A stretch of 64,000 bases of DNA from Gammaproteobacteria bacterium (GCA_965221955.1 CBDCTA010000014.1:1-64000); one strand, 5' to 3'. Shown: positions 1 through 18,699, numbered from the stretch's first letter. Numbers and translations are program-made. Notes: generated by a model not told the origin, from the letters alone.

Positions 1-1437
1 TGTTGCACCTTTTTGTTTTCCTTGATGCCAAGCTACCCCCGCAATATCCAAGTGTGCCCAGGTATATTTTTTCGTAAACCTAGAAAGAAAACATGCAGCC
101 GTAATCGTGCCTCCCCAGCGTCCACCAATGTTTGCCATATCTGCAAAGTTGCTATCGAGCTGTGACTGATACTCGTCCCATAGCGGTAGTTGCCAAGTAC
201 GGTCGCCAGTTTGTTCACCTGCTTTGATAAGGTCTTTAGCTAATGCATCATCATTGCTCATTACACCTGAAGGAATTTGTCCTAACGCTACGACACAAGC
301 CCCAGTTAGGGTCGCAACATCAATCACTACTTCAGGTTCATACTTATCAATATAAGTAAGCGCATCACATAACACCAAACGCCCTTCAGCATCCGTATTT
401 AAAATTTCAACCGTTTGGCCGGACATGGTGGTGACTACGTCACCCGGTTTGGTGGCTCTGCCATCTGGCATGTTCTCTGCACAAGCCATTACACCGACTA
501 CATTTAAGGGAAGATCTAATTCACAGCAGGTTTTCATAGTGCCAATGACACTGGCAGCACCACACATATCAAACTTCATTTCATCCATGGTAGCTCCAGG
601 TTTTAATGAGATGCCTCCTGTATCAAAAGTAATACCTTTACCTACCAGAACAATAGGGCGCTCATTCTCATTGCTACCGGTGTACTCCATACAAACTAAT
701 TTTGCAGGTTCAACGCTGCCATTAGAAACGGAAAGCAAGGCACCCATACCCAGTTTTTTCATTTGTGTTTCTTCGAGTACAGAAACTTTTAATTTGCGAA
801 ACTCTTTTTTCAGGGCCAAAGCTTGTTCAGCAAGGTAAGTAGGGGTACATATATTTCCAGGTAAATTGCCAAGTTCTTTTGCCAAATTCATACCGTTTGC
901 GATCGCTTGGCCAATCTCTATGCCATCACGTATATCGGAAAGTTTTTTACGATTACTGGTGATAAGTTTTTGCTTTTTTAAATGTGTTTTAGTTTTCGCT
1001 TTGGGTTTGGTTTCGCTGTAGACATACATCTCAGACGAAATGGAAGTTACACTGACTTGGGCTTTAGTGAGTACATCAGCATTTTTCACAGGTAGTTCAA
1101 TCAGGCAATTAATAATATTGCTGGTTTTATTACGCTTAATTTCACTTGCCACAGCAGACAACGCTTTCTGGTATGCGCTGACAGTGAATTGATCTTCATC
1201 ACCACAGCCAACAATGATGATGCTGTGATGTTTGCTACGACTAGTGTTGTGTAAAGTGGTCACTTGTCCTAGCCCGCCACTGGCAGTGCCGCGTTGGCAT
1301 GCATTCGAAATACTGCCACGATAAATTTTGTCTAATTTTTTAGCGGATTCGCTTAGTCGCTTAGGCTTGAAAATGCCTACTACGACGCAATCAGCAGATT
1401 CTTTATCAATCGATGCGGTTTTGACTATAGTTTCCAT
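1..1437 (-). CDS. pepA: Leucyl aminopeptidase (3' end runs off the window; absent from the ORF track)
   Basis: Minus-strand frame from ATG at 1437 (METIVKTASIDK...) to ...WAHLDIAGVAWHQGKQKGAT at position 1; contains GKGITFDTGG, MKFDMCG and NTDAEGRL; divergent from lptF as usual. Confidence 0.95.
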   Translation of the reverse strand, partial: METIVKTASIDKESADCVVVGIFKPKRLSESAKKLDKIYRGSISNACQRGTASGGLGQVTTLHNTSRSKHHSIIIVGCGDEDQFTVSAYQKALSAVASEIKRNKTSNIINCLIELPVKNADVLTKAQVSVTSISSEMYVYSETKPKAKTKTHLKKQKLITSNRKKLSDIRDGIEIGQAIANGMNLAKELGNLPGNICTPTYLAEQALALKKEFRKLKVSVLEETQMKKLGMGALLSVSNGSVEPAKLVCMEYTGSNENERPIVLVGKGITFDTGGISLKPGATMDEMKFDMCGAASVIGTMKTCCELDLPLNVVGVMACAENMPDGRATKPGDVVTTMSGQTVEILNTDAEGRLVLCDALTYIDKYEPEVVIDVATLTGACVVALGQIPSGVMSNDDALAKDLIKAGEQTGDRTWQLPLWDEYQSQLDSNFADMANIGGRWGGTITAACFLSRFTKKYTWAHLDIAGVAWHQGKQKGAT

Positions 1438-1529
1438 TTTTTCCTCAATTTACTGTCTGTGTTTGCTGCATTATTGCTAATATTGCGATAAATGTAACTG
1501 TATCTGATCTGTTCCAGCAAAAAGCTTAG

Positions 1530-2598
1530 ATGTTTTCCACACTCAATCGCTATTTCTCTAAAGAACTTGCTCAAACTTTCGCCGCTGTGGGCTTGGTTTT
1601 AGTTGTAGTAATTGTGGGTAAATCTTTTGTCAGCCTACTTTCTAAAGTTATGGACGGAAAGTTACCGTCAGATGTGGTGATGTCTTTGCTGGGTTTGGGA
1701 ATATTAAAATCTGCGATTTTGTTAGTTCCCTTCGCATTACTGCTCACCATCATGCTAGTGCTAGGGCGTTATTATCGTGACAGTGAAATTTACGCAATTA
1801 AGGCTAGCGGCATCGGTTCATTTTCGTTGTTGCGTTACGCCAGTTTGGTGGTTATTCCAATTGTCACATTGTTATTTTTCCTGTCAATTTTTTCTGCACC
1901 TTGGACAGCCCAGCAAATCGAAAAAATAAAACTCAGAGCGAAAGGCTTAACCGATATCCATGGTTTAACACCTGGACAATTTATTGAATCTAATCAAGGG
2001 AATTGGGTGGTGTTCGTTGAAGAGGCCGATAAAAGATTCAGGTGAAGTGAAGAACGTTTTTATTTCAGATCGTAGAGAAGGGAAAGTAGCGATCGAAACT
2101 GCAAAATTTGCGGAACAGAAAAATTTATCGGAGTTGGGGGGAGAGTCGCTAATCTTAAAGAAAGGTCAGCGTTATCAAGGTATGCCAGGTGAAGGGGGTT
2201 TTACGGTATTAACCTTCGATCAACATGCGGTGCGAATACCTGAATTTGATCTTAAGCTAGATCATCAAGATCCGGAATTTAAATCAACTACTGCATTACT
2301 GAAATCTAATGCATTAAGTGATGTGGCAGAATTTCAATGGCGTATCTCTGTACCCATTGCAGCCATATTAGTGGTGTTGCTGGCCTTTCCGCTTAGTGTG
2401 TCTAGTCCAAGACAAGGACGGTTTGCCAATCTCGGAATTGCTATTGTTATTTATTTAATTTATTCAAATTTACTTATCTTGATGGAAGCATGGGTAGCAG
2501 ATGGAAAATTCCCTGCCATACCTGGAATGTTCCTAGTGCATATTGGCATGTTGGTCTTAATTATTATTTTAACCATGCGACAACGATTAGGAGCTTAG
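1530..2598 (+). CDS. lptF: LPS export ABC permease LptF, split into two ORFs by a +1 frameshift near 2031-2034
   Basis: N-half has GRYYRDSEIYAIKASG, C-half has AEFQWRISVP and PRQGRF; removing one A from gatAAAAgattca joins the frames; pepA-lptF-lptG synteny. Confidence 0.9.
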
Positions 2599-2599
2599 T

Positions 2600-3709
2600 G
2601 TGATTTTGTTCAAGCACTATGATCGTTACTTAGGAAGAACCGTGTTCATCGGTACCTTGTTTGCGTTACTCGTGTTGTTTTCAATTGATTCCATTATCGA
2701 TTTTATTGATGATGTGGAATCTGTAGATGATCGTGGCTTTACATTTAACCATGTGTTGTTGAGATTGTTTTATGGTATGCCTCAACGTCTTTATGAATTT
2801 ATGCCCACTGCTCTGTTGTTGGGTGCGCTCATCGGGCTAGGGCAGCTTGCAGCCAAAAGCGAGTTAGTTGCTTTACGTTCTGCTGGTATCAGCAAAATGA
2901 GAATCATCTGGTCTGCGCTAAAAGTTGGAATTGTGCTTGTAGCGTTGAGTGTTTGGGTAGGAGAAATGGTGGTTCCTACATCACAAGGTTATGTGAACAG
3001 CTTAAGTAAGAGCCAGGTAAGACATACTAATAGTGATGGCGAGCAAGTCAGTGACATTAAAAAAATATCATTACGTTCAAAATACGGTGTTTGGGTACGT
3101 GATGGTAAGCGTTATGTGAATGCACAAGAAATTTATCCTGATTATCGCATGCGTGATATTTGGGTGTATGAATTAGATGAACAATACAAATTAAAACGTG
3201 CAAGTTTCATCAAACAAGCGGTTTATCAAAATGAAGTTTGGAAATTATCTGATATTAAACATAGTCTAATTTCCCAAAATGGCGTGGAAACCGTTGCGGC
3301 GGAAGAAGAACATTGGGAAAGATTGGTTTCACCTGACCTATTTGATGTGATCACTGTTAAACCGGAATATATGGGGGCTGCAAAGCTTAAAAAATATATT
3401 AATTATTTAGAAGGTAATGAACTTGATGCGCAACGTTATGAGCTTGCATACTACAATCGTTTCGCAAATCCATTGTCTGGTATAGCAATGTTGTTGATTG
3501 CATTACCATTTGTGTTTCGATCAGCGCGTACAGGAGGGTTAGGGCAACGAATTATCTTAGGCGCAGTCATTGCACTTGCATTTAATATATCAAGTAAAAT
3601 GTTAGCAAATTCTAGTGCAGTATACGACATACCGCCGATATTGGGGGCATTTTTACCAACATTGATTGTCATTACGATTGCCACGATTGCGATAAAGAGG
3701 ATGGCGTAA
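2600..3709 (+). CDS. lptG: LPS export ABC permease LptG
   Basis: GLGQLAAKSELVALRSAGIS motif, YjgP/Q-family hydrophobicity, follows lptF. Confidence 0.93.
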   Translation: MILFKHYDRYLGRTVFIGTLFALLVLFSIDSIIDFIDDVESVDDRGFTFNHVLLRLFYGMPQRLYEFMPTALLLGALIGLGQLAAKSELVALRSAGISKMRIIWSALKVGIVLVALSVWVGEMVVPTSQGYVNSLSKSQVRHTNSDGEQVSDIKKISLRSKYGVWVRDGKRYVNAQEIYPDYRMRDIWVYELDEQYKLKRASFIKQAVYQNEVWKLSDIKHSLISQNGVETVAAEEEHWERLVSPDLFDVITVKPEYMGAAKLKKYINYLEGNELDAQRYELAYYNRFANPLSGIAMLLIALPFVFRSARTGGLGQRIILGAVIALAFNISSKMLANSSAVYDIPPILGAFLPTLIVITIATIAIKRMA

Positions 3710-3742
3710 TCTTATTTAAATTGTCTGTATCAGGAAAATTTC

Positions 3743-4087
3743 ATGGCGTTATTTAGATTGTTTTTAATATTTTCATCAGTGGTTATCTTTGTAATTACAT
3801 TCATTGTATTAACAGCAAATGGTGTCAATTGGCCAAGCGTATTTTTTGGCGACATTCTTGATCTAAACTGGCGTTCACAATTCAATGTTGATTTTTTAAT
3901 TCATCTATTTTTGTTAGCAACTTGGATCGCATGGCGTGAAGGCTTTACTCCTAAGAGTTATATATTTGGTTTTCTAAGTATCTTTCTAGGCGGAATGTTC
4001 GGGTTTCTCTATATTTTGTATGCGACTTATCAGACGAATGGAGACCCTAGGGCTTTGTTACTTGGTAAGCGCTTGGATGGTGCGTGA
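3743..4087 (+). CDS. Small membrane protein of unknown function
   Basis: 114 aa, about three hydrophobic segments, WIAWRE motif, RBS-like CAGGAA upstream. Confidence 0.75.
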   Translation: MALFRLFLIFSSVVIFVITFIVLTANGVNWPSVFFGDILDLNWRSQFNVDFLIHLFLLATWIAWREGFTPKSYIFGFLSIFLGGMFGFLYILYATYQTNGDPRALLLGKRLDGA

Positions 4088-4190
4088 GTATAAGGATATA
4101 CGAATATGAGTCGCGTCTAGATGGCGCGAACAAATTAAAGTTAGGTGGAATTAAAAGAGGTATGTTGGTGGATTTAAGTTACTTTTATAA

Positions 4191-4220
4191 AATGACAGCT
4201 AACGACCCAAAGTGTGAGTA
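4191..4220. repeat. 30-bp array palindrome, copy 1 (right arm divergent)
   Basis: AATGACAGCT-AAC-GACC-CAA-AGTGTGAGTA. Confidence 0.65.
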
Positions 4221-4284
4221 CATGGATGGGCGAACATGAGATGCAACAAGGAGGTTGCTTCAGATTCAATATTTCTTTTAATAG

Positions 4285-4314
4285 AATGACTGCTATCGAC
4301 CCAAAGCGGACATT
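4285..4314. repeat. 30-bp array palindrome, copy 2
   Basis: AATGACTGCT-ATC-GACC-CAA-AGCGGACATT. Confidence 0.92.
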
Positions 4315-4343
4315 TATGCAAATTAATAAATCAATAGCAAGAC

Positions 4344-4877
4344 ATGACTTTAATTCGTGACGCAACGAATTTGGATTCTGAATACATCCGCGAAATACAC
4401 ATGCACGCATTCAATAAAGACGAAGCAAAAAAGGTAGCAACACTTGCATGCAATCTTCTTAATGAAGAAACAAATCCTAGAACATTGACAAAGGTAGCTG
4501 AGATAGATGGTCAAGTGATAGGCCACATCGCATTTAGTCCAGTAACTTTTAATACAAATAAGAAATTAAAAGGTTATATTCTGGCTCCACTTGGCGTTAA
4601 ACCTGAGTATCAAAGGCATCAAGTTGGAACAAAACTCGTTGAAAATGGAATAGAACAACTATCAAGAGAAGGAGTCTGCATAATATTTGTTTATGGCGAC
4701 CCAAAATACTATAGCAAGTTAGGATTTAATGAAAAGACTGCAGCTAATTTCTACCCACCTTACAAATTGCAGTATCCTTTTGGATGGTTGGCACTTGTTC
4801 TTAATGAGAAGTGTAATACTGAACACATTGCAAAGGTAACGTGTGTAGCCTCATTGTGTGATCCTACATTATGGTGA
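4344..4877 (+). CDS. GNAT N-acetyltransferase (YhbS-like)
   Basis: GHIAFSPV, LAPLGVKPEYQRHQVG, VYGDPKYYSKLGF motifs. Confidence 0.9.
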   Translation: MTLIRDATNLDSEYIREIHMHAFNKDEAKKVATLACNLLNEETNPRTLTKVAEIDGQVIGHIAFSPVTFNTNKKLKGYILAPLGVKPEYQRHQVGTKLVENGIEQLSREGVCIIFVYGDPKYYSKLGFNEKTAANFYPPYKLQYPFGWLALVLNEKCNTEHIAKVTCVASLCDPTLW

Positions 4878-4898
4878 CTATGTTTTTTGCTGGATATA

Positions 4899-4928
4899 AA
4901 TGACCGCTATTGGCCGAAAGTGGTCATT
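4899..4928. repeat. 30-bp array palindrome, copy 3
   Basis: AATGACCGCT-ATT-GGCC-GAA-AGTGGTCATT. Confidence 0.92.
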
Positions 4929-4979
4929 TGTAAGTATGATCTTTGCTTGATTCTATTTTCTATTTAATGAAGCTAAAGA

Positions 4980-5408
4980 ATGGTCATGAATAATAAAGTC
5001 AAAATAAACGAAATAATAAACAATGAAACTCGAGCCTTTGATACTCAAGATATTGAACTGTTTTTAAGTATTTTACACCCAGATATGGTTTGGCCATGGC
5101 CGCCGAATGTTAATGCTCATGATCCTTTAGAGTGGGTCCTGCCCTGGGGTCGATATAATAAAAAACGTTGGTACTGTTACCTTGAGAAATTTTTTGATAA
5201 ATATGACCTTGTGCATAATGTTAGAGATACAAGGAAAATTGAGATTTCAAAAGAAGGGGATGGTGCATTTGCTGTTGTAGATGTTAATACACTATGGAAA
5301 ACAAAATCTGGAAAGGAATTACACTGGAATGGACGAGCTTGTAAGATATATACGACTTACAATTCAAAATGGGTGATGATTTCTCAAATGGGACTATTAG
5401 ATTATTAA
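4980..5408 (+). CDS. NTF2/SnoaL-like fold protein
   Basis: RAFDTQDIELFLSILHPDMVW start and terminal beta-strands ending KWVMISQMG, typical of the NTF2-like fold. Confidence 0.7.
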   Translation: MVMNNKVKINEIINNETRAFDTQDIELFLSILHPDMVWPWPPNVNAHDPLEWVLPWGRYNKKRWYCYLEKFFDKYDLVHNVRDTRKIEISKEGDGAFAVVDVNTLWKTKSGKELHWNGRACKIYTTYNSKWVMISQMGLLDY

Positions 5409-5420
5409 AATAATATAATT

Positions 5421-5450
5421 AACGTCCACTAACGACCCAAAGCGGACATC
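5421..5450. repeat. 30-bp array palindrome, copy 4
   Basis: AACGTCCACT-AAC-GACC-CAA-AGCGGACATC. Confidence 0.9.
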
Positions 5451-5488
5451 ATTCAGCCAATGAGACCAATTTATATTTAGGAGTAGTT

Positions 5489-5851
5489 ATGAGTTATGTT
5501 GATGGGTATGTACTACCTGTACCTAAAGCTAATTTATCAGCCTATAAAGAAGTTGCAAATAAAATGGGAAATATTTGGATGGAGCATGGAGCCCTAGCTT
5601 ACAAAGAATGTATCGCAGATGACCTTATCCCAGAGGGAATTGATGCTAATTTTTTAGATGCATCTAGTGCAGAGGAAGGTGATACCGTAATTTTTGCATA
5701 TGTTCTATTTAAATCCCGAGAACATAGAGATGAAGTAAATAAAAAAGCCATGGAAGATCCACGCGCAAAAGAAAGTTGTGATAAGGAAAACAAAATTTTC
5801 AATGCAAATAAAATGCTAATGGGTGGGTTTGAAACATTCATCGATTTGTAA
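5489..5851 (+). CDS. DUF1428 (YbaA-like) protein
   Basis: MSYVDGYVLPVP, WMEHGAL, FKSREHRDEVN, MLMGGF; strong RBS AGGAG. Confidence 0.9.
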   Translation: MSYVDGYVLPVPKANLSAYKEVANKMGNIWMEHGALAYKECIADDLIPEGIDANFLDASSAEEGDTVIFAYVLFKSREHRDEVNKKAMEDPRAKESCDKENKIFNANKMLMGGFETFIDL

Positions 5852-5855
5852 GCTT

Positions 5856-5885
5856 AATGTCCGCTTTCGGCCAATAGCGGACATT
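5856..5885. repeat. 30-bp array palindrome, copy 5 (perfect 10-bp arms)
   Basis: AATGTCCGCT-TTC-GGCC-AAT-AGCGGACATT. Confidence 0.95.
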
Positions 5886-6095
5886 CATAGAATTTCAATA
5901 AACTTTAGCCAGCTACACACAGGAGATATGATAGAGGTTGGTTAAAAAGTGCAAATATCCTCCATAAATGTTGAATTTTTATTCTTTCTATACCTGAAAC
6001 CAACAATTAGCTGAGGTAGAACAAGAAACTTTAGCTTAGGAAAGCTTAATCTTCGTTTGTCCATATATCTCACTATTAGGTTAGGCAAGCTTTTT

Positions 6096-6389
6096 ATGAT
6101 TGCACCTGTCTACAAAAAAATGGCTGGCACATCTGCTGTATTTCTCTCTGCAGATTTTGCGAAGGCATCACCTATGGAACGAGATGGAATGATCTGGACT
6201 GCAGAAGAGCTGCATCTCGAGCAGCTTCCCAGCCAGCGGCAGCCAAAATCCGCAATGGCTAACGCACTTGCTTTGGAAGGCTTGGAAGAATATGACATGC
6301 CAAATAATGGTGACGTTCGTAGGGTTGAGTCAATTGGTGCGGAATTCATATATTTTGATTTAATTCGTGGATGGGTCCAACTCAACTAA
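6096..6389 (+). CDS. Hypothetical protein
   Basis: Open frame (ATG 6096 preferred over TTG 6057); stop lies 23 nt before the next repeat. Confidence 0.65.
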   Translation: MIAPVYKKMAGTSAVFLSADFAKASPMERDGMIWTAEELHLEQLPSQRQPKSAMANALALEGLEEYDMPNNGDVRRVESIGAEFIYFDLIRGWVQLN

Positions 6390-6412
6390 GAGCACTCTTA
6401 AAGAAATAGTTT

Positions 6413-6442
6413 AATGAGCGTTAACGGCACAAGACTGACATT
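6413..6442. repeat. 30-bp array palindrome, copy 6 (degenerate)
   Basis: AATGAGCGTT-AAC-GGCA-CAA-GACTGACATT. Confidence 0.75.
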
Positions 6443-6500
6443 ATCGTTATGTAATTAGTAGCTATTTATGTTTTTGCCCTAAAAATTGAGAGAAACAGTG

Positions 6501-6803
6501 ATGGATAAAAGTTGGAATCTTGAAGATGCACAAAAGCTGGTAGATGAGGTTCCACATAAATTTTCTAAACCTTCAAAAGATGTCATTGAACCACTAGAGA
6601 AAGGTCATAAAGTAAAGCTCATGTTTAATTTTAAAAGTGATAATCCTAAAATATCAAGTAATGAGCAATTGTGGGTTGAAATCCTATTAGTACAAGATAA
6701 TAAATTCTTAGGGCAGCTAGAAGATAATCCTGAACACATTCAAGATTTAAAGTGTGGAGAAATAATAGAATTTGAAGAGCGTCACATCATTGATACAGAC
6801 TGA
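6501..6803 (+). CDS. DUF2314-like hypothetical protein, possibly C-terminally truncated
   Basis: VKLMF...EQLWVEI...FLGQLEDNP...LKCGEIIEF...HIID pattern. Confidence 0.6.
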   Translation: MDKSWNLEDAQKLVDEVPHKFSKPSKDVIEPLEKGHKVKLMFNFKSDNPKISSNEQLWVEILLVQDNKFLGQLEDNPEHIQDLKCGEIIEFEERHIIDTD

Positions 6804-6843
6804 AATAACTCAACATGTTCCATGTAGAGATATAATTAAAACC

Positions 6844-7263
6844 ATGAAAGTTAATGAACACGGCTATGGCATAAGAGATAACTCTTACAATGCGGCGGGT
6901 AGACTTGCTGGCATCACATGTCTCGTGGAAAATTTTTTCTCAAACATGGATACATTTCCTGAAGCAAAAACAATCAGAGAAATGCACCCGCAAGATTTAA
7001 CCGAATCACGCAAAAAATTAACATACTTTCTCTGTGGATGGCTGGGAGGCCCAAAACTTTATCACCAACATTATGGCGGAATCAGTATTCCTGAGGTGCA
7101 TAAACATTTGGCTATTGGGGAAACAGAGCGAGATGCGTGGCTTCTTTGTATGCAAAAGGCTATTGACGCTCAACAATATCTGGACTCCTTTAAGGAATAC
7201 CTATTTGCCCAGTTAAAGATCCCTGCAGAAAGAGTTAAACAAACGTGTGAGAATAAAAACTAA
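6844..7263 (+). CDS. Group II truncated haemoglobin
   Basis: IREMHPQDL, KLTYFLCGWLGGPKLY, HKHLAIGETERDAWLLCM. Confidence 0.88.
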   Translation: MKVNEHGYGIRDNSYNAAGRLAGITCLVENFFSNMDTFPEAKTIREMHPQDLTESRKKLTYFLCGWLGGPKLYHQHYGGISIPEVHKHLAIGETERDAWLLCMQKAIDAQQYLDSFKEYLFAQLKIPAERVKQTCENKN

Positions 7264-7320
7264 CAAGTTGGTTCCAACTGCTACGTTGTATGTGTTGTGA
7301 ATAAACCATAGCGTTAATGA
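7257..7320 (+). repeat. Possible degenerate integron attC-like site
   Basis: TAAC overlapping the globin stop ... GCGTTA; inner TGGTT/AACCA boxes each 4 nt inside the TAAC/GTTA ends. Confidence 0.35.
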
Positions 7321-7345
7321 CCGCTATTGGCCGTAAGCGGACATT
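7316..7345. repeat. 30-bp array palindrome, copy 7
   Basis: AATGACCGCT-ATT-GGCC-GTA-AGCGGACATT. Confidence 0.95.
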
Positions 7346-7352
7346 CATTTCA

Positions 7353-7667
7353 CTATAAAGACTTCCCCCATTTTTCAAGTGCAAGAATAATAGGTTTTAG
7401 TGGTTCAGTTTTCTTAGTAAGGCTATATTCAACTTTCGGTGGCACTACTTGATAAACTTCGCGATGGACGAGACCGTCACTTTCTAGTTCACGTAATTGC
7501 TTGGTCATCATTCTTTGTGTAACACCCGGCATAAATTTTCGCAGTTCACCGAAGCGTTTTTTTCCATCCATAAGGTGATACAAAATAACGCCTTTCCATT
7601 TGCCTCCAATTATCCCGAGAGCAGTTTCTACAGGACAATTTTCTGCTCTTTTTTTACGTGTACTCAT
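7353..7667 (-). CDS. HxlR-family winged-helix regulator
   Basis: CPVETALGIIGGKWK, RFGELRK, VPPKVEYSLT. Confidence 0.93.
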   Translation of the reverse strand: MSTRKKRAENCPVETALGIIGGKWKGVILYHLMDGKKRFGELRKFMPGVTQRMMTKQLRELESDGLVHREVYQVVPPKVEYSLTKKTEPLKPIILALEKWGKSL

Positions 7668-7679
7668 TTAGTCGTTCTC

Positions 7680-7725
7680 ATAGTATACATTTAGATACTA
7701 TAGCACTTTAATGTGCCTACTTTAC
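7680..7725. promoter_or_regulatory. Divergent promoter region with dyads (putative HxlR operator)
   Basis: TAGTATAC-ATTTA-GATACTA and GCAC-TTTAAT-GTGC inverted repeats between the regulator and its divergent target. Confidence 0.45.
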
Positions 7726-7786
7726 ATCTATATACTGTAAGCCTAGCATGATAAACAGTTCAAGAAATCCATATAGGGAAAACAAC

Positions 7787-8365
7787 ATGAAAATTTTAAT
7801 AGTGACTGCTGGATACTCAATATTTGAAGCAAAAGGCCAGTTAAATGGTTTTCTTGCTTACCTCACTCAGAAGAATCTCACTGAAAGAGGGCATGAAATC
7901 AAGGTGTCTGATGTCGTAAAAGATACTTGGGATGTGGATCGCGAAGTTGAAAAGCTGTTATGGGCAGATACGATTATCTATATCACGCCCATCATGTGGT
8001 TCAATATGCCTGCGCCCATGGTGAGATGGCTTGATGAAGTACTACTCTATGAAAAAACGTTTGTTATCACGGATGAATACGGTGAAGGTGGGAGGGTGTC
8101 CGCAAATAACTTCATGATTGTGACTACATCAAACTTAAAGAAAAGTGATTTGGGTAATGGGTATGTATTGAATAACGCATCTCACATCGATGATTTATTG
8201 CAGCCACTTATTATGACCAATACTTATCTTAGTGTTCGTAATCAGATCCCAACTTTTCATGCGGATAACGTAATCGCAGGTGATACTAGTTGGATACAAT
8301 CTGCATATGAAAATCATTTGGATATGCACTTTGAAGAAGAAGTTTCTTTAGCGGTTGCTGGTTGA
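7787..8365 (+). CDS. Flavodoxin-fold NAD(P)H-dependent oxidoreductase (MdaB-like)
   Basis: MKILIV, EVEKLLWADTIIYITPIMWFNMPAPMVRWLDEV. Confidence 0.85.
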   Translation: MKILIVTAGYSIFEAKGQLNGFLAYLTQKNLTERGHEIKVSDVVKDTWDVDREVEKLLWADTIIYITPIMWFNMPAPMVRWLDEVLLYEKTFVITDEYGEGGRVSANNFMIVTTSNLKKSDLGNGYVLNNASHIDDLLQPLIMTNTYLSVRNQIPTFHADNVIAGDTSWIQSAYENHLDMHFEEEVSLAVAG

Positions 8366-8374
8366 CAGTAAAAA

Positions 8375-8404
8375 TATTTCCGCTTTTGGCCGTAAGCGGA
8401 CATT
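8375..8404. repeat. 30-bp array palindrome, copy 8
   Basis: TATTTCCGCT-TTT-GGCC-GTA-AGCGGACATT. Confidence 0.9.
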
Positions 8405-8429
8405 TTAATTTAGACTGGCTTTAATCTGA

Positions 8430-8590
8430 TACAACATCCTTGTTGTAGCTCTTATTCGTACTTCCATGTACTCACTAATTGGCCGACAGAAATTTGCTCC
8501 TCGGCAACTGCTCCTGCGTTACTCTACCTCCCGCATCCTTGCAGCCGTGCAATTTCTGCACTTCCGCCATCCATGGTGGTCGAAGCAAAC
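8430..8590. repeat. Structured intergenic element with nested inverted repeats (REP/MITE-like)
   Basis: TACAAC-ATCCTT-GTTGTA, CAGAAATT...AATTTCTG, CGCCATCCATGGTG; recurring CATCC(A/T)TG-like loops. Confidence 0.5.
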
Positions 8591-8597
8591 ATTTAAA

Positions 8598-9026
8598 TTA
8601 AGTACGAACCAATTTCGTTTTCGAAGCGATGTCGTGCCAAGTTCGGTGTTGTTTGTCCCATAAGCTCCAAAGAAAGCCGAGTCCTAGTGCAAGCCAGGAA
8701 AGTGTTGCTACGGAGTAGCGAATCAGTGCAGTGCTCCAACTTATCTCTGAATCATCATCGTTTACTAATTGTATTTTCCATGTGCGCATGCCCAATGTCT
8801 GTCCGTTATGGGTCCAAAACCAAGCAAAGAAAATAAATGCAACAACAAAGATATACGCTTGATATAAAAAGAAAAAAGGATTTTCAGGTTTAAGGTTAAA
8901 GGGAACGACTACTAAGAAAGATGCAATGAATAGAACCGTAATTAACAAAAAGAAATCATACAAAATTGCACCAAAGCGCCTTAATAAAGAAACATGTTGA
9001 ATATTAGATGTGGATGTAGATTTCAT
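8598..9026 (-). CDS. RDD family membrane protein
   Basis: RRFGAILYD, GQTLGMRTWKI, WHDIASKT. Confidence 0.93.
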   Translation of the reverse strand: MKSTSTSNIQHVSLLRRFGAILYDFFLLITVLFIASFLVVVPFNLKPENPFFFLYQAYIFVVAFIFFAWFWTHNGQTLGMRTWKIQLVNDDDSEISWSTALIRYSVATLSWLALGLGFLWSLWDKQHRTWHDIASKTKLVRT

Positions 9027-9117
9027 TGTGGTTTTTAATAACGATGTAAAAGTTGATTTTATTATGTGAAATTCATAAACTTAAACTTTATGAGGTTAAT
9101 AATCCGATTTCAATTAC

Positions 9118-10035
9118 ATGAGTGATACCTCATTTACATTACCATCTGATCAACCCGTAATCGAAGCATTTTTAGATACGCTTTGGGTTGAACACGGTTT
9201 AAGTGAAAACACATTATCCGCGTATCGAAACGATTTGCTTGGGCTTTCTAAGTGGCTGTCCAAGATGACGGTCAATATTACTGAGGCACGTCGGGATCAT
9301 TTATTAGATTATTTATCCTATCGAGTGCAACAAGGCAGTATGCCGCGCACTTCGGCAAGATTGTTATCCAGTATTCGTCGTTTTTATCGTTATTTAGTGC
9401 GCCAGGGTGCAGTGCAAAAAGATCCGTCTGCACAAATCGAGTTTCCAAAACTTGGACGTCCTTTGCCCGAAACGTTAACCGAAGAAGAGGTTGAGCGTCT
9501 GCTTGCTGCACCGAATACTAATAAGGCACAAGGTGTACGTGATCGAGCCATGTTAGAAGTGCTCTATGCATGCGGGTTGCGAGTTAGTGAGTTGATTGGT
9601 TTAACCTTAAGTCAGGTTAATTTAAATCACGGCGTGATTCGTGTAATTGGAAAAGGTAACAAAGAACGCTTGATTCCATTTGGAGAACAGGCCAACGAGT
9701 GGATTTCTAAGTTTATAAATGAAGCGCGTGCAGATTTATTAAAAAATAATCGCCAATGTGATGCGTTGTTCATCACCAATCGTGGTGCTGCAATGACAAG
9801 GCAAGCATTTTGGCATTTGATAAAAAAGCACTCTAAGAATGTAGGGATTACTAAACACCTCTCACCACACACGCTGAGACATGCATTTGCAACACATTTA
9901 TTGAATCATGGAGCTGATTTGCGCGTGGTGCAGATGTTATTAGGGCATAGTGATTTGTCTACCACCCAGATCTATACGCACGTCGCGCAGGCTAGATTGC
10001 AGGAATTACACCGACAGCACCATCCCAGAGGATAG
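9118..10035 (+). CDS. xerD: Site-specific tyrosine recombinase XerD
   Basis: RDRAMLEVLYACGLRVSEL, GKGNKERLIP, HTLRHAFATHLLNHGADLRVVQMLLGHSDLSTTQIYTH; dsbC downstream. Confidence 0.95.
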   Translation: MSDTSFTLPSDQPVIEAFLDTLWVEHGLSENTLSAYRNDLLGLSKWLSKMTVNITEARRDHLLDYLSYRVQQGSMPRTSARLLSSIRRFYRYLVRQGAVQKDPSAQIEFPKLGRPLPETLTEEEVERLLAAPNTNKAQGVRDRAMLEVLYACGLRVSELIGLTLSQVNLNHGVIRVIGKGNKERLIPFGEQANEWISKFINEARADLLKNNRQCDALFITNRGAAMTRQAFWHLIKKHSKNVGITKHLSPHTLRHAFATHLLNHGADLRVVQMLLGHSDLSTTQIYTHVAQARLQELHRQHHPRG

Positions 10036-10196
10036 ATATAACTTAGCTAAATCTGTGTCTGGGCGGCTATTTTGGCCATTCTAAAGGCTGAAATTATTCT
10101 TCTCGATTCGGGTCCTATATAGTACGGCTGTAATCGGCCTACGATAATCTAAAAATCCATAATATTTATTTCATATTAAATAGGGAATTAACAGTA

Positions 10197-10928
10197 ATGT
10201 ATAAGTTGATCATTTCTTTCGTACTCGTTTTATTTTGCACACAAGTTGCCTACGCGGATCAGGCAGAACATGTTGCAAATATTATGGAGCGTTTAGAAAA
10301 GCTAGCGCCGCAAGAGAAACCAGATTCAGTAAAACCTACAGCTGTAGCTGGTTTGTATGAAGTGGTATTTGGTTCGGAGATTTTTTATGTTTCCTCTGAT
10401 GGTCGATATGTTTTACAAGGAGCGCTGTTAGATTTGGATACCAATGAAAACATGACTGAGACCACAAAAGCTTCATTGCGTAAAACTGCGATGAGTCAGC
10501 TAAAAGAGTCTGAAATGATTGTGTTTTCTCCTGAAAAGCCTCGTCATACACTTACAGTGTTTACCGATATTGATTGCGGTTACTGTAGAAAATTACACGC
10601 AGAAATGGATCAGCTAAATAGTTATGGTGTGAAAATTCGTTATATGATGTTTCCACGTAGTGGGCCCAACACCCCATCTTTCCAAAAGGCCGTAAATGTT
10701 TGGTGTGCTAAAGATCAACAAGTATCAATGACCAAAGCGAAGGCGGGCGAAAGTGTTCCTCAAGCGAACTGTGATAATCCTATCGCATCTCAATTTAATG
10801 TCGGGCAACAATTAGGTGTTACTGGGACACCTGCATTGTTACTTGATGATGGGACTTTAATTCCTGGTTATCGTCCGGCGAAAGATTTGGCTGCGATGTT
10901 GGATGAACAAGCTAAGAAGACTAATTAA
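10197..10928 (+). CDS. dsbC: Thiol:disulfide isomerase DsbC
   Basis: Signal peptide, VFTDIDCGYC, GVTGTP. Confidence 0.93.
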   Translation: MYKLIISFVLVLFCTQVAYADQAEHVANIMERLEKLAPQEKPDSVKPTAVAGLYEVVFGSEIFYVSSDGRYVLQGALLDLDTNENMTETTKASLRKTAMSQLKESEMIVFSPEKPRHTLTVFTDIDCGYCRKLHAEMDQLNSYGVKIRYMMFPRSGPNTPSFQKAVNVWCAKDQQVSMTKAKAGESVPQANCDNPIASQFNVGQQLGVTGTPALLLDDGTLIPGYRPAKDLAAMLDEQAKKTN

Positions 10929-13900
10929 TTAACTCTTCCTCTGAAAAATCATACTGTGCTGGAATCGACGTAAATAAGATCGAAGCTCGTATTGCTTTCT
11001 CAGGATAAAGTTTCGTTACGGCATTACGATAAGTGTTGATCTGATTTAGATATTGTTTAGCATGTTCTTGCATAGTCTCAATAGCCACATCGCTCGTGGT
11101 TTTATAGTCAATGACCCAAGCGGTCGAATCTGTAATGATCAGTAGATCGATGATGCGATAAAAAACGTTGTCTTTGTTGGTGAAGCTGATAGGTATTTCT
11201 TTTAAAATTTCTTTTCCAGGAGCTTCAGAAAATAACTCGTGTAGCTTGGGGGTTTCCAAACAATTTTTAACCTCATCAAGAGCGCGATCAAATTCTTGTG
11301 ATGTTGTTGTGGTGCCCAGTGCGGTATCTACTACAAATTTTAATTCCTCATAATCTTGATTCTGGAAGTGCTTTTGTTCCGCGAGCTCTAGAATCTTATG
11401 TACTAGCGTTCCATAATCTGCTTGCTGCTCATCTATTGCAGCAAGTTGTTCAGTGGAAGGGTTTGTTACATCCGTTATAGGGAAGGGTAGGCTTAGATCG
11501 AAGTTTAGATCTAATTCTGGAGGCCCTTCTGTACTAGTTTGATTATTTGGTTTTTTTGCTGCTGTGGGAGTGCCAAAACTAAACTCTAATGGCTCACCGT
11601 CGTCTGCTTTCTCAAACGCATCTTGAATGATAGAGTGCCATGAAAATGTATTGTGTTTCGATGCAGTGCCGCTGACAAATAAATATTGTTTGGCGCGTGT
11701 AAGCGCTACATAAAGCAAATTAAGTTCTTCAAGATAATCCTTATTTATTTGGTGCTTAATAATGGCTTGTGTATCTTTATCTATGTCATCTTTACGTCCC
11801 AATATGAAGAACTGCTCGGGCTGTTGTGCGCTTGGTGGCCAATTAATAATGGATTGATAAGTACGCGGTTTGCTTTTTTGTGGACCAGTGTCGATTAAAA
11901 ATACTACCGGTGCTTCCAAGCCTTTTGCTGAATGAATCGTCATGATTTGTACAGCGTTTTCACTCTGTTGTGGTTTATTGCTTGACAGTGAACTACTGGC
12001 ATTTGGATTTTGTAAAGCTTGTAGAAACGATTGAATGCTTGAGTATCTGCCTGCATCTAAATCTAAACTCAGTTGTAATAAAGAGGTTAAATTTTCCAAT
12101 ACCTGTATTTTTAACTCCTCAGAGCCTTCATTGCTGATGCAATGAGAATAACGAGTGAGTAGATTCGTTTGAAAATAGATTTGATCTAGTAGGTCATGAA
12201 CCGGTAATGAATTTGCAATTTTTCTCCAGCTTTCTAATTGTTCAACTGCTTGTCTTGCAATGGAGTTATTGGCTTGCTTGGAATAGGTTTCAAGCTTTTC
12301 ATGCCACGTAGGTTCTTTCTGCATAGCTATTTGCATCATTTTTTCATCACTGATGGCATACAATGGTGAGCGTAATACTTGTGCTAGTGCTAAATCATTA
12401 TGAGTCTGAACAAGATAAGTCAGCAGCGCCAAAATATCTTGAACCTCCAAAGACGATAAAAAATCTTTGTCATAAGTACTGTTATAGGGGATCCTTTGTT
12501 CTCGTAAGGCAAGCTCAAGCTGTGCAAGATGAGTGCGATTTCTGGCGAGGATCATAATGTCGCGATACTCAATAATACGCGCACCAGAATCATTGAGAAT
12601 ACTGGTTGTGCTGTTTACTAATCGAGTGATCTTTTTTGCAACTTGCTGACTTTCTATAAAGTGACAATCATATTCAATGTCTTGCTTGCCTTTGATCAGC
12701 GGATTGCGAAAAGAAGTTTGCTTGGCTTTGTCGTTGCCTAAGTCTTCTATAGAGATGAGCGGCTCAACATGCACTTCACCCCACAAATTAGACTGAATGG
12801 CACGATGCGGGTTGAAATTACTCAGTTCGATTTTTTCTTGAGAAAAAATTTGATTAACAAATTTTATAATTGCGGGTGATGAACGATAAGAGTCATCCGT
12901 TTCAAGCAAATCTGCATTCAGGTGTTGTTTGGCCCAATCGGCCGCGGTAAATTGCAGCTTTGAATTAGCGCGACGAAACCCGTATATGGATTGTTTGGCA
13001 TCACCTACAAAAAATAAACTTCTATGATTGTCGTGAGCGTCGATCGCGAGCTCATCAAGTAAAGGTAATAGTAACTTCCATTGTGTGGGATTTGTGTCTT
13101 GGAATTCGTCGATTAAAATATGTTGAATGCGTTGATCGAGTTTGTATTGTACCCATGCAGCACTTTCATGTTGATTGAGTAGTAGATAGGTATACCACTC
13201 TAAATCATCAAAATCTAAAGTATGTTGATTAAATTTGAGAGATTGATATTCGTCTAATAATAGCTTGCCTGCATAATACCAAGCTTGGTTAAACTCAAAT
13301 AGAGCTTGTTTCTTTGTGTAATCAATATATTCCAAGAGTTGTTCGCAAATAGTTTCGTGCAGTACAAGAAACTTATGCATTTTCTCGGTACCCAAACTTT
13401 TTTCTAACGCTTTGCCAGTTTTAAGTTGACGTTTTTCAAATTTTCTGGTTAAAAAAACGTAGAAAATGGTATTGAGATGCTGAATATCAGGTTGTTCTAG
13501 AAAACGAGACAGAGATTCACCATGACGCTGATTGGTTGCAGTTTGATGTAAAAATAGATATGAGGAATATTCTTGTGTTAGAGGTGTTATCGTTGTGATA
13601 AATGCTGCTTGATCAAAGGGTTTATTAAATAAGAGTTTGTGTAAGCATTTCTCTGCATATGCAGTAGGATCAGTTTGGTTTTCGGTAAAGCTCCACCAAT
13701 CGCTTCTGGAGTCTAAAAAGGTATCTAGGACTTGATGGAAATTATTGACACTATTGCAATGATCAAGCAGTTTGAATAATGTCTGGTTTAATTTTTCATG
13801 CTTTTCAGATTGCGCGAGTTTAAATAATCGTTTGCGCGCCTCCTGCTTGAGAGTCAATGTGTTTTCTGTAACTCGAAAGCCTGCAGGTACACCAGCATGA

Positions 13901-14307: not shown

Positions 14308-14385
14308 GCAGTTAGCATACTGACGTGATGGGATTCCTACAATTACTATATTTATAAATCAAAAATTGAAATTTAAAGGAAGTAA

Positions 14386-16272: not shown

Positions 16273-16290
16273 AAATATTATGCGAGGTCA

Positions 16291-16327
16291 GGTTAGAGAA
16301 AAGGGAAACTTAGCTCGAGTGAACTAA
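16291..16327 (+). repeat. Degenerate direct duplicate of the parE 3' end
   Basis: GGTTAGAGAAAAGGGAAACTTAGCTCGAGTGAACTAA vs GGCTGGAGAAAAAAGGAAACTTGGTGCGAGTATGA at 16238-16272. Confidence 0.6.
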
Positions 16328-16339
16328 CTAGTATTTAAT

Positions 16340-18607: not shown

Positions 18608-18699
18608 GGCGCTTGAATTTATTAAAGTTAGGCTCCATATATTGATAACATATATAAAGACTAAATTAGCATTATCTAAGAATTTTTGAGGACTGATGA

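What the first reader, a model, noticed from the sequence alone, without database searches (positions are those of the whole stretch)
4191..8404. Integron-like gene-cassette array delimited by a non-attC 30-bp palindrome, with no integron integrase
Seen: eight copies of a fixed-length 30-bp imperfect palindrome (starts 4191, 4285, 4899, 5421, 5856, 6413, 7316, 8375; consensus AATGWCCGCT-WWY-GRCC-NWW-AGCGGACATT). After a short non-coding unit between copies 1 and 2, they bracket one small gene or a two-gene unit: GNAT; NTF2-like; DUF1428; hypothetical; DUF2314-like plus globin; HxlR plus oxidoreductase. The copies closing these six units lie 4-52 nt after a stop codon, and all genes but HxlR share a strand. 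Known: this layout and cargo type are typical of integron arrays, and lptG and RDD are often direct neighbours, so the block looks inserted. The sites lack the RYYYAAC/GTTRRRY boxes of attC, are shorter than attC, do not match dif, and lack consistent U-tails. Inference: they are recombination sites of a possibly undescribed cassette capture/shuffling system, with the recombinase encoded elsewhere. I do not know of a named family for this site.
Basis: partly seen in the sequence, partly recalled or inferred. Interest (0 to 1): 0.9.

Follow-up and report, generated by a model that had tools for sequence, protein, structure and literature searches.

The report
Palindrome-bounded mobile gene cassettes, no integrase
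A conserved 30-base palindrome brackets small accessory genes in this marine bacterium and in many distant Proteobacteria, forming movable gene cassettes and integron-like arrays without any recognisable integrase or transposase, so the machinery that moves them is unknown.

Summary
Six good and two degenerate copies of the 30-bp palindrome lie at the stated places and bracket the stated genes; chance expectation is 0.

The repeat is not local. This 2.7-Mb genome holds 189 copies in 59 clusters. They fall into two polar subtypes. B lies about 29 nt before a gene's start and A about 6 nt after its stop. In larger arrays the units are joined as A-linker-B.

B-gene-A behaves as a mobile cassette:
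- The same cassette occurs at different loci, with homology ending at the repeats.
- Two co-assembled strains share 99% identical flanks but carry different cassettes.
- A metagenome contig lacks one cassette, with the joint inside the repeat.
- lptG and RDD are adjacent in five relatives.
- A DUF1428 cassette is 85-92% identical across genera whose LptG is about 35% identical to the window's.

The 30-mer is nearly invariant from GC 36% to GC 69% genomes, alphaproteobacterial MAGs included. Its stems show no compensatory changes.

It is not attC, dif or RAYT-REP. No enzyme was found. The mechanism is inferred, not shown.

The parts
2600..3709 (+). lptG, conserved left flank of the hotspot
   Evidence: ORF. 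Orthologues of 57-84% identity across the family. Directly beside RDD in G019, G015, G001, G022 and G044.
3743..4087 (+). ORF of 114 aa with no Pfam family; part of the variable block
   Evidence: No tblastn match at this locus in any of the 12 relatives' loci.
4083..4140 (+). Outer copy of the genus-restricted 57-nt repeat M1
   Evidence: nhmmer E=4.5e-9.
4191..4212 (+). Truncated subtype-B site (first 22 nt) fused to M1
4213..4270 (+). Inner M1 copy; forms the inverted pair with 8419-8476
   Evidence: nhmmer E=4.2e-14. Inverted repeat I1, 63 nt, 78% complementary.
4285..4314 (+). 30-mer, subtype B; first full site of the array
   Evidence: Identical in the second strain; homology between strains ends 3 nt after it.
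4344..4877 (+). GNAT acetyltransferase cassette gene
   Evidence: Pfam PF00583, E=6e-11. A 29%-identical homologue in another MAG locus (L096) is also flanked by two 30-mers.
4899..4928 (+). 30-mer, subtype A
4980..5408 (+). SnoaL/NTF2-like cassette gene
   Evidence: Pfam PF12680, E=2e-5, below the curated cut-off.
5421..5450 (+). 30-mer, subtype B (3 mismatches)
5489..5851 (+). DUF1428 cassette gene
   Evidence: Pfam E=1.6e-31. Found in 7 of 56 family genomes. In the 8 homologous loci outside the window no neighbouring ORF is shared. In 7 of those 8 loci (often decayed) A- and B-like sites flank the gene, at near-identical offsets in the five minus-strand loci L166-L169 and L172.
5856..5885 (-). 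30-mer, subtype A in inverted orientation (0 mismatches)
   Evidence: In the second strain its loop has the opposite orientation although the right flank is 98.7% identical.
6057..6389 (+). Hypothetical cassette gene of 110 aa
   Evidence: no family.
6413..6442 (+). Degenerate 30-mer (5 mismatches)
6486..7263 (+). Two-gene unit: DUF2314 plus bacterial globin
   Evidence: Pfam PF10077 and PF01152. The block 5854-7345 is shared with the second strain at 98.7%.
7316..7345 (+). 30-mer, subtype A
7353..8365 (.). Unit of HxlR (minus strand) plus a flavodoxin-like-fold reductase (plus strand); polymorphic in the population
   Evidence: Pfam. Absent from contig C23 and from a 1556-nt metagenome contig that joins 7320 to 8380.
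8375..8404 (+). 30-mer, subtype A; last site of the array
8419..8476 (-). M1 copy in inverted orientation, closing the array
   Evidence: nhmmer E=2e-13, I1.
8477..8600 (-). Further repeat module (M0), beginning with a fragment of an A-type loop
   Evidence: 82-86% identical copies at C17:40248, C22:168241, C22:41256 and C3:28647; junctions.
8598..9026 (-). RDD-family gene, conserved right flank
   Evidence: Pfam PF06271.
9118..10035 (+). xerD, conserved neighbour; no evidence that it acts on the sites
   Evidence: 80-98% identical in relatives.

Best explanation
The repeats belong to a genome-wide family of a 30-bp quasi-palindrome. It marks the two ends of mobile, mostly single-gene cassettes.

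Subtype B has the loop AACGACCCAA and two unlike half-sites. It sits a median 29 nt upstream of the start codon. Subtype A has the loop ATTGGCCGAA and is almost perfectly symmetric. It sits a median 6 nt after the stop codon, and in ten units it overlaps it. Cassettes stand alone or are chained through a 29-53-nt linker (A-linker-B) into co-oriented arrays. The window's lptG-RDD block is one such array. It lies in a hotspot specific to this genus and is bracketed by inverted copies of a second, genus-restricted repeat (M1).

Shown: the anatomy, the polarity, that cassettes occur in different contexts, that arrays turn over between strains and species at the repeats, that at least one cassette moved between genera, and that the site is conserved across Proteobacteria.

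Inferred: the 30-mers are cis-acting sites read in a sequence-specific way by a protein. Cassettes are gained and lost by recombination between like sites (A with A, B with B). The observed loss or gain of the HxlR/reductase unit between two A sites is an example. The enzyme is not an integron integrase, a RAYT or any of the transposase families tested, and it remains unidentified.
For: Anatomy
- 189 copies in 59 clusters. 170 are classified: 39 B, 38 A, 48 b and 45 a, where lower case means the inverted orientation.
- Contig C5 carries 11 consecutive ORF-A-linker-B units, all on one strand.
- 31 close-spaced site pairs (28 of them A-B or b-a) have discrete start-to-start spacings: 73 nt (14), 83 (10), 72 (2), 82 (2), 59 (2) and 71 (1).

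Polarity
- The largest ORF reads from B to A in 25 of 27 BA units and 25 of 29 ab units.
- 0 of 170 classified copies lie inside an ORF of 150 aa or more.

Mobility
- C5:748-1536 matches C26:69643-70422 at 85.6%. C5:3076-3670 matches C17:16509-17104 at 77.9%. C5:25760-26117 matches C11:2700-3057 at 96.9%. In each case homology ends at the outer edges of the two sites.
- Two cassettes that lie on different contigs here sit 1.4 kb apart in one array in another MAG locus (L029).
- Strain pairs C14/C23 and C10/C29 have flanks 98.7-99.7% identical but different arrays, with breakpoints at the sites.
- A metagenome contig joins 7320 to 8380.
- The site is empty in 5 relatives, and the content differs in G010, G014, G011, G002 and G013.
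- DUF1428 occurs in 7 of 56 family genomes with no shared neighbours. It is 85-92% identical between genera g1 and g7, whose LptG is 34-36% identical to the window's.
- Cassette ORFs average 34.6% GC, against 39.5% (sd 3.2) for ORFs of 200 aa or more.

Sequence-specific recognition
- The whole 30-mer, centre included, is kept in loci of GC 0.36-0.69.
- Stem variation is one-sided, not compensatory. At pair 5/26 in this genome there are 63 consensus pairs, 80 one-sided changes and 9 double changes (4 of them Watson-Crick) against 15.3 expected.
- In G013 (same genus, 0 copies) and in genus g7, the sites beside the same cassette are decayed.

Distribution
- Genus: 13 of 14 genomes. Family: 18 of 24. 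Phylum sample: 26 of 401. The reversed control pattern gave 0 hits everywhere.
Against: - No enzyme was found. The repeat-rich genomes G000 and G010 (G010 is one contig and 100% complete) have no IntI, Y1/RAYT, IS110, IS66, rve, Rpn, TnpB or DDE_Tnp_1 match. The only tyrosine recombinases they share are XerC and XerD.
- The third integrase and the large serine recombinase are sporadic.
- No recurrent gene lies beside or inside cassettes in 117 distant loci.
- No circular or excised form was seen; only assembled contigs were available.
- The three strain-level breakpoints do not fall at one position in the site. They lie after position 30, within positions 24-30, and between positions 5 and 11.
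- Genome-wide dispersal, two subtypes and linkers of fixed lengths are also what REP/BIME elements show.
- The promoter reading of the linker is weak. Only 1 of 11 linkers passes the consensus scan, and promoter-like sites are not enriched: 24 found against 34.8 expected.
Confidence: 0.45

Rival explanations
1. REP/BIME-type extragenic palindromes with no dedicated recombinase. The 30-mers spread and persist as selfish or structural intergenic elements, acting for example as mRNA-end hairpins or protein-binding punctuation. Cassette turnover is then a by-product of general homologous recombination between the repeats or the roughly 100-nt composites, possibly after uptake of foreign DNA.
For: - Hundreds of extragenic copies in two subtypes, paired through linkers of fixed length.
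- No recombinase or transposase was found in complete repeat-rich genomes.
- Strain breakpoints fall at varying positions within the site.
- A single 30-mer folds as a stable hairpin: -9.5 kcal/mol, z = -4.4.
Against: - No RAYT in G000, G010, G004, G014 or G019.
- The sequence is kept across classes and across GC 36-69%, which is unlike species-specific REPs as I recall them.
- Stems show no compensatory changes, and subtype B carries a fixed A/A mismatch.
- The strict B-upstream, A-downstream polarity.
- Copies usually differ at 1-3 positions, leaving little perfect identity for RecA.
- No A copy on the coding strand of the C5 array is flagged as terminator-like, although the scan's loop limit of 8 nt works against a 10-nt loop.
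Confidence: 0.28
2. The mobile unit is the roughly 100-nt A-linker-B composite, a MITE-like element whose two ends are the palindromes. It inserts between genes, and genes merely become bracketed by neighbouring insertions.
For: - A and B act as imperfect terminal inverted repeats of a 89-113-nt unit with a conserved internal motif.
- Gene-free M1-linker-30-mer-M1 units exist at C29:575436-575616 and C22:45728-45953.
Against: - Many loci hold only B-gene-A, without full composites on either side.
- Homology between copies of one cassette covers B to A inclusive and not the linkers.
- Cassette genes are accessory and AT-richer than the genome, and they move between genomes.
- No cognate transposase was found.
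- Target-site duplications were not seen by eye; this was not tested systematically.
Confidence: 0.1
3. Xer-dependent modules, as in the pdif modules of Acinetobacter plasmids. The 30-mers would be unusual XerC/XerD sites, and the host XerCD, encoded next to this array, would move the cassettes.
For: - XerC and XerD are the only tyrosine recombinases common to the repeat-rich genomes.
- The site is 30 bp long and subtype B has two unlike half-sites.
- xerD lies 700 bp from the array.
Against: - The genome's own dif-like site (C4) and those of four relatives are canonical, and their arms bear no resemblance to the arms of the 30-mer.
- XerCD is also present in relatives with no copies, such as G013.
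- The xerD neighbourhood is conserved in relatives with an empty site, so the adjacency is ancestral synteny.
Confidence: 0.06
4. Degenerate integron cassettes (a CALIN). The composites would be atypical attC sites, served by an IntI that was lost or lies in unassembled DNA.
For: - Co-oriented small accessory genes are separated by roughly 100-nt imperfect palindromic composites.
- These can fold as one long bulged hairpin. One of the two composites folded does so on both strands.
- In ten units the stop codon overlaps the site.
Against: - 0 of 31 composites have RYYYAAC and GTTRRRY at their ends, and 1 of 189 single sites has either box.
- No IntI over the cut-off.
- There are dozens of loci instead of one platform.
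- The sequence is conserved, whereas attC is conserved in structure.
- The sites occur in alphaproteobacterial MAGs, a class in which 243 genomes had no integron, In0 or CALIN (PMC4889954, passages read).
Confidence: 0.04
5. Operator or punctuation sites for a DNA-binding regulator. B overlaps the start of transcription of each cassette, and A marks its end.
For: - B has a fixed position 29 nt before the start codon.
- A conserved GGTTGGAAT motif lies 17 nt before a YAAAAT that overlaps B.
- Sequence is conserved, not hairpin structure.
Against: - This does not explain cassette mobility or turnover.
- Only 1 of 11 linkers passes the promoter scan.
- The 15-nt linker seen in alphaproteobacterial loci showed no promoter-like arrangement on reading by eye, a check that rests on no tool call.
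- This reading could coexist with the best explanation.
Confidence: 0.05

Closest known systems
[quoted passage not shown]
   Same: - Arrays of small, mostly co-oriented accessory genes of diverse function.
- Each gene is followed within a few bases by an imperfect palindromic site.
- Arrays turn over fast between strains.
- The stop codon sometimes lies inside the site.
- No integrase lies nearby, as in a CALIN.
   Different: - The sites are conserved in sequence, lack the R''/R' boxes, and come as two subtypes at the 5' and 3' ends of the gene.
- Cassettes are scattered over dozens of loci, many of them single.
- There is no IntI anywhere in the genome.
- The sites are present in alphaproteobacterial MAGs.
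REP / BIME elements with their RAYT transposase
   Same: - Short extragenic imperfect palindromes in 100-200 copies.
- Two subtypes combined through linkers of fixed length into mosaic units.
- Located at gene ends.
   Different: - No RAYT in five repeat-rich genomes.
- The sequence is shared across classes of Proteobacteria.
- Fixed 5'/3' polarity around single accessory genes.
- The bracketed genes behave as mobile cassettes.
pdif (Xer) modules of Acinetobacter (PMC12907356 seen as a search listing and abstract only; the rest recalled)
   Same: - Discrete gene modules are bounded by 28-30-bp sites of two orientations or kinds.
- The modules are moved without a dedicated element-encoded recombinase.
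   Different: - The arms of the 30-mer do not resemble the genome's own dif-like site.
- The modules here are chromosomal and number in the dozens.
Neisseria intergenic mosaic elements (dRS3/RS arrays) and Correia elements (recalled only)
   Same: - Short palindromic repeats delimit repeat units in arrays downstream of genes.
- Companion repeats, such as M1 and M0 here, build mosaics.
   Different: - Here the units between the sites are protein-coding cassettes.
- The site is not confined to one genus.

Membership tests
Integron / attC (CALIN) | Integron integrase (IntI) in the genome or beside the array | tested here: not met
   TIGR02249: the best hits of 83 and 77 bits are XerD and XerC; the cut-off is 265 bits. 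The genome is 96.6% complete.
Integron / attC (CALIN) | R'' (RYYYAAC) and R' (GTTRRRY) boxes at the two ends of each site | tested here: not met
   0 of 31 composites carry both boxes; 1 of 189 single 30-mers carries either.
Integron / attC (CALIN) | Match to the attC covariance model (IntegronFinder) | not testable with these tools
   The model is not on hand. Rfam has no such family and gave 0 matches at E<=1 over 3500-9200.
Integron / attC (CALIN) | Site of 57-141 nt that folds as a bulged hairpin on one strand | tested here: inconclusive
   One of two composites folds as a long A-B hairpin on both strands; the other prefers separate hairpins. In the window itself the junctions are single 30-mers.
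REP/BIME with RAYT | Extragenic imperfect palindromes in many copies | tested here: met
   189 copies; 0 of 170 classified copies lie inside ORFs of 150 aa or more.
REP/BIME with RAYT | Cognate Y1 (RAYT) transposase gene | tested here: not met
   PF01797: no match in G000, G010, G004, G014 or G019; one match in G015.
REP/BIME with RAYT | Hairpin maintained by compensatory changes | tested here: not met
   Double changes are not above expectation, and one-sided changes dominate.
Xer (dif / pdif) sites | XerC and XerD binding arms around a 6-8-bp centre | tested here: not met
   The genome's own dif-like site and those of 4 relatives share no arm similarity with the 30-mer. Only the 30-bp length fits.
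MITE / IS-derived element | Cognate transposase in the genome | tested here: not met
   No IS110, IS66, rve, TnpB or DDE_Tnp_1 in G000 or G010. The near-identical duplicated stretches examined are core genes from a second strain.
MITE / IS-derived element | Target-site duplication at the ends | not tested
   Flanks were only inspected by eye; none was evident.

The most novel reading that the evidence does not exclude
A previously undescribed, integrase-independent gene-cassette system. A sequence-conserved pair of 30-bp sites (B and A) defines self-contained cassettes. An unknown, probably chromosomally encoded protein inserts, excises and exchanges them. The system operates in patches across Alpha-, Beta- and Gammaproteobacteria and beyond, including lineages where integrons have not been found. 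In IS-free streamlined marine genomes it would be the main route of accessory-gene turnover.
Probability: 0.35. Interest if true: 0.9.

Novelty: new variant of a known kind. Interest (0 to 1): 0.75.

Why it matters
Integrons are the only well-understood system that stockpiles and shuffles single genes. The study I read found none in 243 alphaproteobacterial genomes (PMC4889954).

Here, arrays and single cassettes are bounded by one conserved site. They occur in genomes that have no integrase, no RAYT and none of the transposase families tested. At least one cassette has moved between genera.

If a dedicated protein reads this site, it is a second, independent solution to gene capture. It would also offer a ready-made 30-bp recombination or binding target.

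If no such protein exists, the case shows how far plain repeats can organise accessory genes in streamlined marine bacteria.

Either way the site is a practical marker. It can be used to find flexible genes in metagenomes, and it explains why assemblies of these organisms break there.

Tried and rejected
Enzyme hunt. All candidates were negative or uncorrelated:
- IntI, Y1/RAYT, IS110, small and large serine recombinases, IS66, rve, Rpn/Transposase_31, TnpB and DDE_Tnp_1.
- The third tyrosine integrase has an orthologue (59-67% identity) only in G014; ten of 41 other genomes show only distant hits.
- The large serine recombinase sits in a prophage-like block with a terminase and a ParB-methylase. 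Close homologues occur in only 4 of 41 genomes.
- Clustering ORFs of 150 aa or more from 117 distant loci gave no recurrent neighbour except ABC substrate-binding proteins.
- Clustering 292 + 130 cassette ORFs gave no recurrent 'autonomous' gene.
- Of the 56 families hit by 76 cassette proteins, only the top 25 could be seen. None of those is a DNA enzyme.

Other searches:
- Complementarity to stable RNAs: 11-mers of the site match only degenerate or half copies elsewhere in the genome.
- Rfam: 0 matches over 3500-9200.
- Plasmid and phage collections: no match to a composite at E<=0.01. Viral contigs: 3 stretches in 2.9 million.

Sequencing runs:
- No RNA holder was listed.
- All four runs laid were assembled contigs, so circles, transcript ends and rare variants could not be seen.
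- Most short 'joints' (sides of 22-35 nt) are repeat-to-repeat matches. I did not count them.

Replication orientation:
- B/b copies follow the GC-skew-inferred leading strand in 53 of 71 cases, against 867 of 1403 ORFs.
- In G019 they follow it in 44 of 53 listed copies. I counted these by hand from the partial list, using the dif position.
- This is suggestive but not independent of gene orientation, so I dropped it as evidence.

Covariation between the inner arms of A and B was checked by eye on 11 composites and rejected. The variable positions are CpG sites.

Promoter in the linker; the support is weak.

Literature:
- Sequence strings of 10-14 nt from the site gave only unrelated primer hits.
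- Topic searches returned nothing that describes this site.
- These searches cover open-access text only, and sequences printed in figures or supplements are not seen. Supplements were closed.
- I therefore cannot state that the site is undescribed, only that I found no description.

Full report
Observation

The 30-bp palindrome is real. Six copies match AATGWCCGCT-N10-AGCGGACATT with 0-3 mismatches at 4285, 4899, 5421, 5856, 7316 and 8375. None is expected by chance: 100 shuffles gave a maximum of 0. The copy at 6413 has 5 mismatches. The copy at 4191 is a truncated site, 22 nt long, fused to another repeat. The copies follow stop codons by 4-52 nt.

Genome-wide picture

The window is contig C14 of a 2.69-Mb assembly in 29 contigs, 96.6% complete with 4.3% contamination.

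A relaxed pattern finds 189 copies in 59 clusters, 26 of which are single copies. None of the 170 classified copies lies inside an ORF of 150 aa or more.

By their central ten bases the copies fall into two subtypes:
- A has the loop ATTGGCCGAA and is almost perfectly symmetric.
- B has the loop AACGACCCAA. Its two half-sites differ, typically AATGAC on the left and AATGTC on the right when read inwards.

They follow a grammar. On the plus strand the order is B-[gene]-A and A-[short linker]-B, and the mirror image holds on the minus strand. Contig C5 shows it in pure form, with eleven consecutive ORF-A-linker-B units all on one strand.

In 53 B-to-A units:
- the median length is 538 nt (range 275-2326);
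- B ends a median 29 nt before the start codon;
- A begins a median 6 nt after the stop codon;
- in ten units A overlaps the stop codon.

The largest ORF reads from B to A in 25 of 27 BA units and 25 of 29 ab units.

The 31 close-spaced site pairs (28 of them A-B or b-a) have discrete start-to-start spacings: 73 nt (14), 83 (10), 72 (2), 82 (2), 59 (2) and 71 (1). The linker carries a conserved GGTTGGAAT motif at a fixed distance from B. It resembles a weak sigma-70 promoter, but only 1 of 11 linkers passes a consensus scan, and such sites are not enriched.

The window's array reads B A B a (degenerate) A A. It is a reduced version in which single sites stand at the junctions.

Cassette behaviour

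1. The same cassette occurs at different loci, with homology confined to B through A:
   - C5:748-1536 and C26:69643-70422, 85.6%;
   - C5:3076-3670 and C17:16509-17104, 77.9%;
   - C5:25760-26117 and C11:2700-3057, 96.9%.

2. The assembly holds two co-assembled strains. Several contig pairs are 97-99.8% identical, and those examined carry core genes such as rpoB, sucA and lpd.
   - C14 and C23 are two versions of this very locus. C14 1-4317, 5854-7345 and 8380-19227 match C23 at 98.7-99.5%.
   - Between those stretches C14 has GNAT, SnoaL-like and DUF1428, where C23 has 11 kb of other cassettes.
   - C23 lacks the HxlR/reductase unit.
   - C10 and C29 differ in the same way.

3. A 1556-nt contig from a public metagenome joins 7320 to 8380, which is the C23 form.

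4. In relatives:
   - lptG and RDD are adjacent in G019, G015, G001, G022 and G044.
   - lptG abuts xerD in G017 and G023.
   - In the window's genus the gap is 0.8-6.1 kb in the five species examined (G002, G010, G011, G013, G014), with 0-5 sites, and contains none of the window's cassette genes.

5. DUF1428 occurs in 7 of 56 genomes of the family.
   - Its eight other loci share no neighbouring ORF.
   - Seven of the eight keep A- and B-like sites, at near-identical offsets in the five minus-strand loci L166-L169 and L172.
   - The proteins are 85-92% identical between genera g1 and g7, whose LptG is 34-36% identical to the window's.

6. Cassette ORFs average 34.6% GC, against 39.5% for long ORFs. 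Their cargo is diverse: GNAT, M23 and M48 peptidases, cyanate lyase, a bicarbonate transporter with P-II, Hsp20, OsmC, hydrolases and others.

Distribution

The pattern, with up to 2 mismatches, occurs in:
- 13 of 14 genomes of the genus and 18 of 24 of the family;
- 26 of 401 genomes in a phylum-wide sample, concentrated in one family of small genomes.
A reversed control pattern gave 0 hits everywhere.

The records are labelled Alpha-, Beta- and Gammaproteobacteria, Nitrospinaceae, Mariprofundaceae and an Acidobacteriota MAG. A few are cultured strains.

Across loci of GC 0.36-0.69 the whole 30-mer is kept, including the centre (TTGGGTC or GGCC).

In an alphaproteobacterial locus (L098), three consecutive ABC substrate-binding genes each have B upstream and A downstream, with a 15-nt linker.

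No match was found in the plasmid or phage collections. Three stretches were found in viral contigs.

What the site is not

- Not attC: 0 of 31 composites have the R''/R' boxes, and there is no IntI. A published survey found no integron, In0 or CALIN in 243 alphaproteobacterial genomes (PMC4889954; passages read).
- Not Xer: the genome and four relatives each have a canonical dif-like site with quite different arms.
- Not RAYT-REP: there is no Y1 transposase in five repeat-rich genomes.
- Not a plain structural hairpin: variation in the stems is one-sided and not compensatory, and subtype B carries a standing mismatch.
- Not IS-derived as far as tested: IS110, IS66, rve, TnpB, DDE_Tnp_1 and Rpn are not found in G000 or G010.
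- G013, the one genome of the genus with no copies, has decayed sites beside its DUF1428 cassette. It carries four IS families that the repeat-rich genomes lack.

Companion repeats

The array is closed by inverted copies of a 57-nt repeat, M1, at 4213-4270 and 8419-8476. M1 has about 59 copies in this genome and brackets many arrays and single cassettes. It is nearly restricted to this genus: 13 of 14 genomes, plus one weak hit in genus g11.

Gene-free M1-linker-30-mer-M1 units exist. They may be remnants or landing pads.

A further module, M0, follows at 8477-8600.

M1 and M0 join truncated sites at fixed positions: after base 22 and before base 13-14.

Mechanism

I infer that a protein reads the 30-mers in a sequence-specific way, and that cassettes are gained and lost by recombination between like sites. 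The polymorphic HxlR/reductase unit between two A sites fits this. The hybrid site in C23 has the left arm of the first A and base 11 of the second.

The evidence against is serious:
- No enzyme was found.
- No circles were seen.
- The three strain-level breakpoints do not map to one position in the site.

The main rival is a REP/BIME-like family whose copies serve general recombination. I put the dedicated-system reading at about 0.45 and this rival at about 0.28.

Verdict

I found no description of this site in the papers I could search. That is not proof that none exists.

Noticed in passing
window 1-19227 and contig C23 (locus L149); also C10/C29, C11/C26, C8/C18, C1/C25, C12/C13: The assembly contains second, 97-99.8% identical versions of several regions. 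Those examined carry core genes (rpoB, sucA, lpd). So two strains were co-assembled, and contigs tend to break at the repeat arrays.
   Followed up: partly
window 4083-4140, 4213-4270, 8419-8476; about 59 copies genome-wide: M1 is a 57-nt repeat nearly restricted to this genus (13 of 14 genomes, plus one weak hit in genus g11). It brackets arrays and single cassettes as an inverted pair. Gene-free M1-linker-30-mer-M1 units lie at C29:575436-575616 and C22:45728-45953.
   Followed up: partly
window 8477-8600: A further repeat module (M0) has 82-86% identical copies at four other loci. It is fused to a fragment of a site loop.
   Followed up: no
G000 contig C26:85304-90595 (locus L147:7305-12596): A prophage-like block holds a large serine recombinase, DUF2924, a terminase large subunit, DUF5681 and a ParB-N6 methylase. 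Orthologues of the recombinase are 70-76% identical in G010, G011 and G019 only.
   Followed up: partly
relative G013 (contig C7:90765-92180 and others): The one genome of the genus without the 30-mer carries IS110, IS66, rve and DDE_Tnp_1 transposases, which the repeat-rich genomes G000, G010 and G015 lack. One of these IS copies lies beside a DUF1428 cassette whose flanking sites have decayed.
   Followed up: partly
relative G019 (dif-like site at 1911911) and this genome: The orientation of B sites switches near the dif-like site in G019: 44 of 53 listed copies are co-oriented with replication, counted by hand. In this genome 53 of 71 follow the GC-skew-inferred leading strand, against 62% of long ORFs.
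   Followed up: partly
G000 contig C22:1-1926 and C29:662144-663592: Long tandem repeats with periods of about 339 and 294 bp appeared in the self-comparison. They were not examined.
   Followed up: no
G000 contig C4:89618 (minus strand): A canonical dif-like site (28 nt, 4 differences from the pattern used). Similar sites occur once each in G019, G010, G001 and G014.
   Followed up: yes
window 5856-5885 and C23:12284-12313: The same junction site has its asymmetric loop in opposite orientations in the two strains, although the flank on one side is 98.7% identical. Either the breakpoint lies in the last few bases of the site, or the loop can flip.
   Followed up: no
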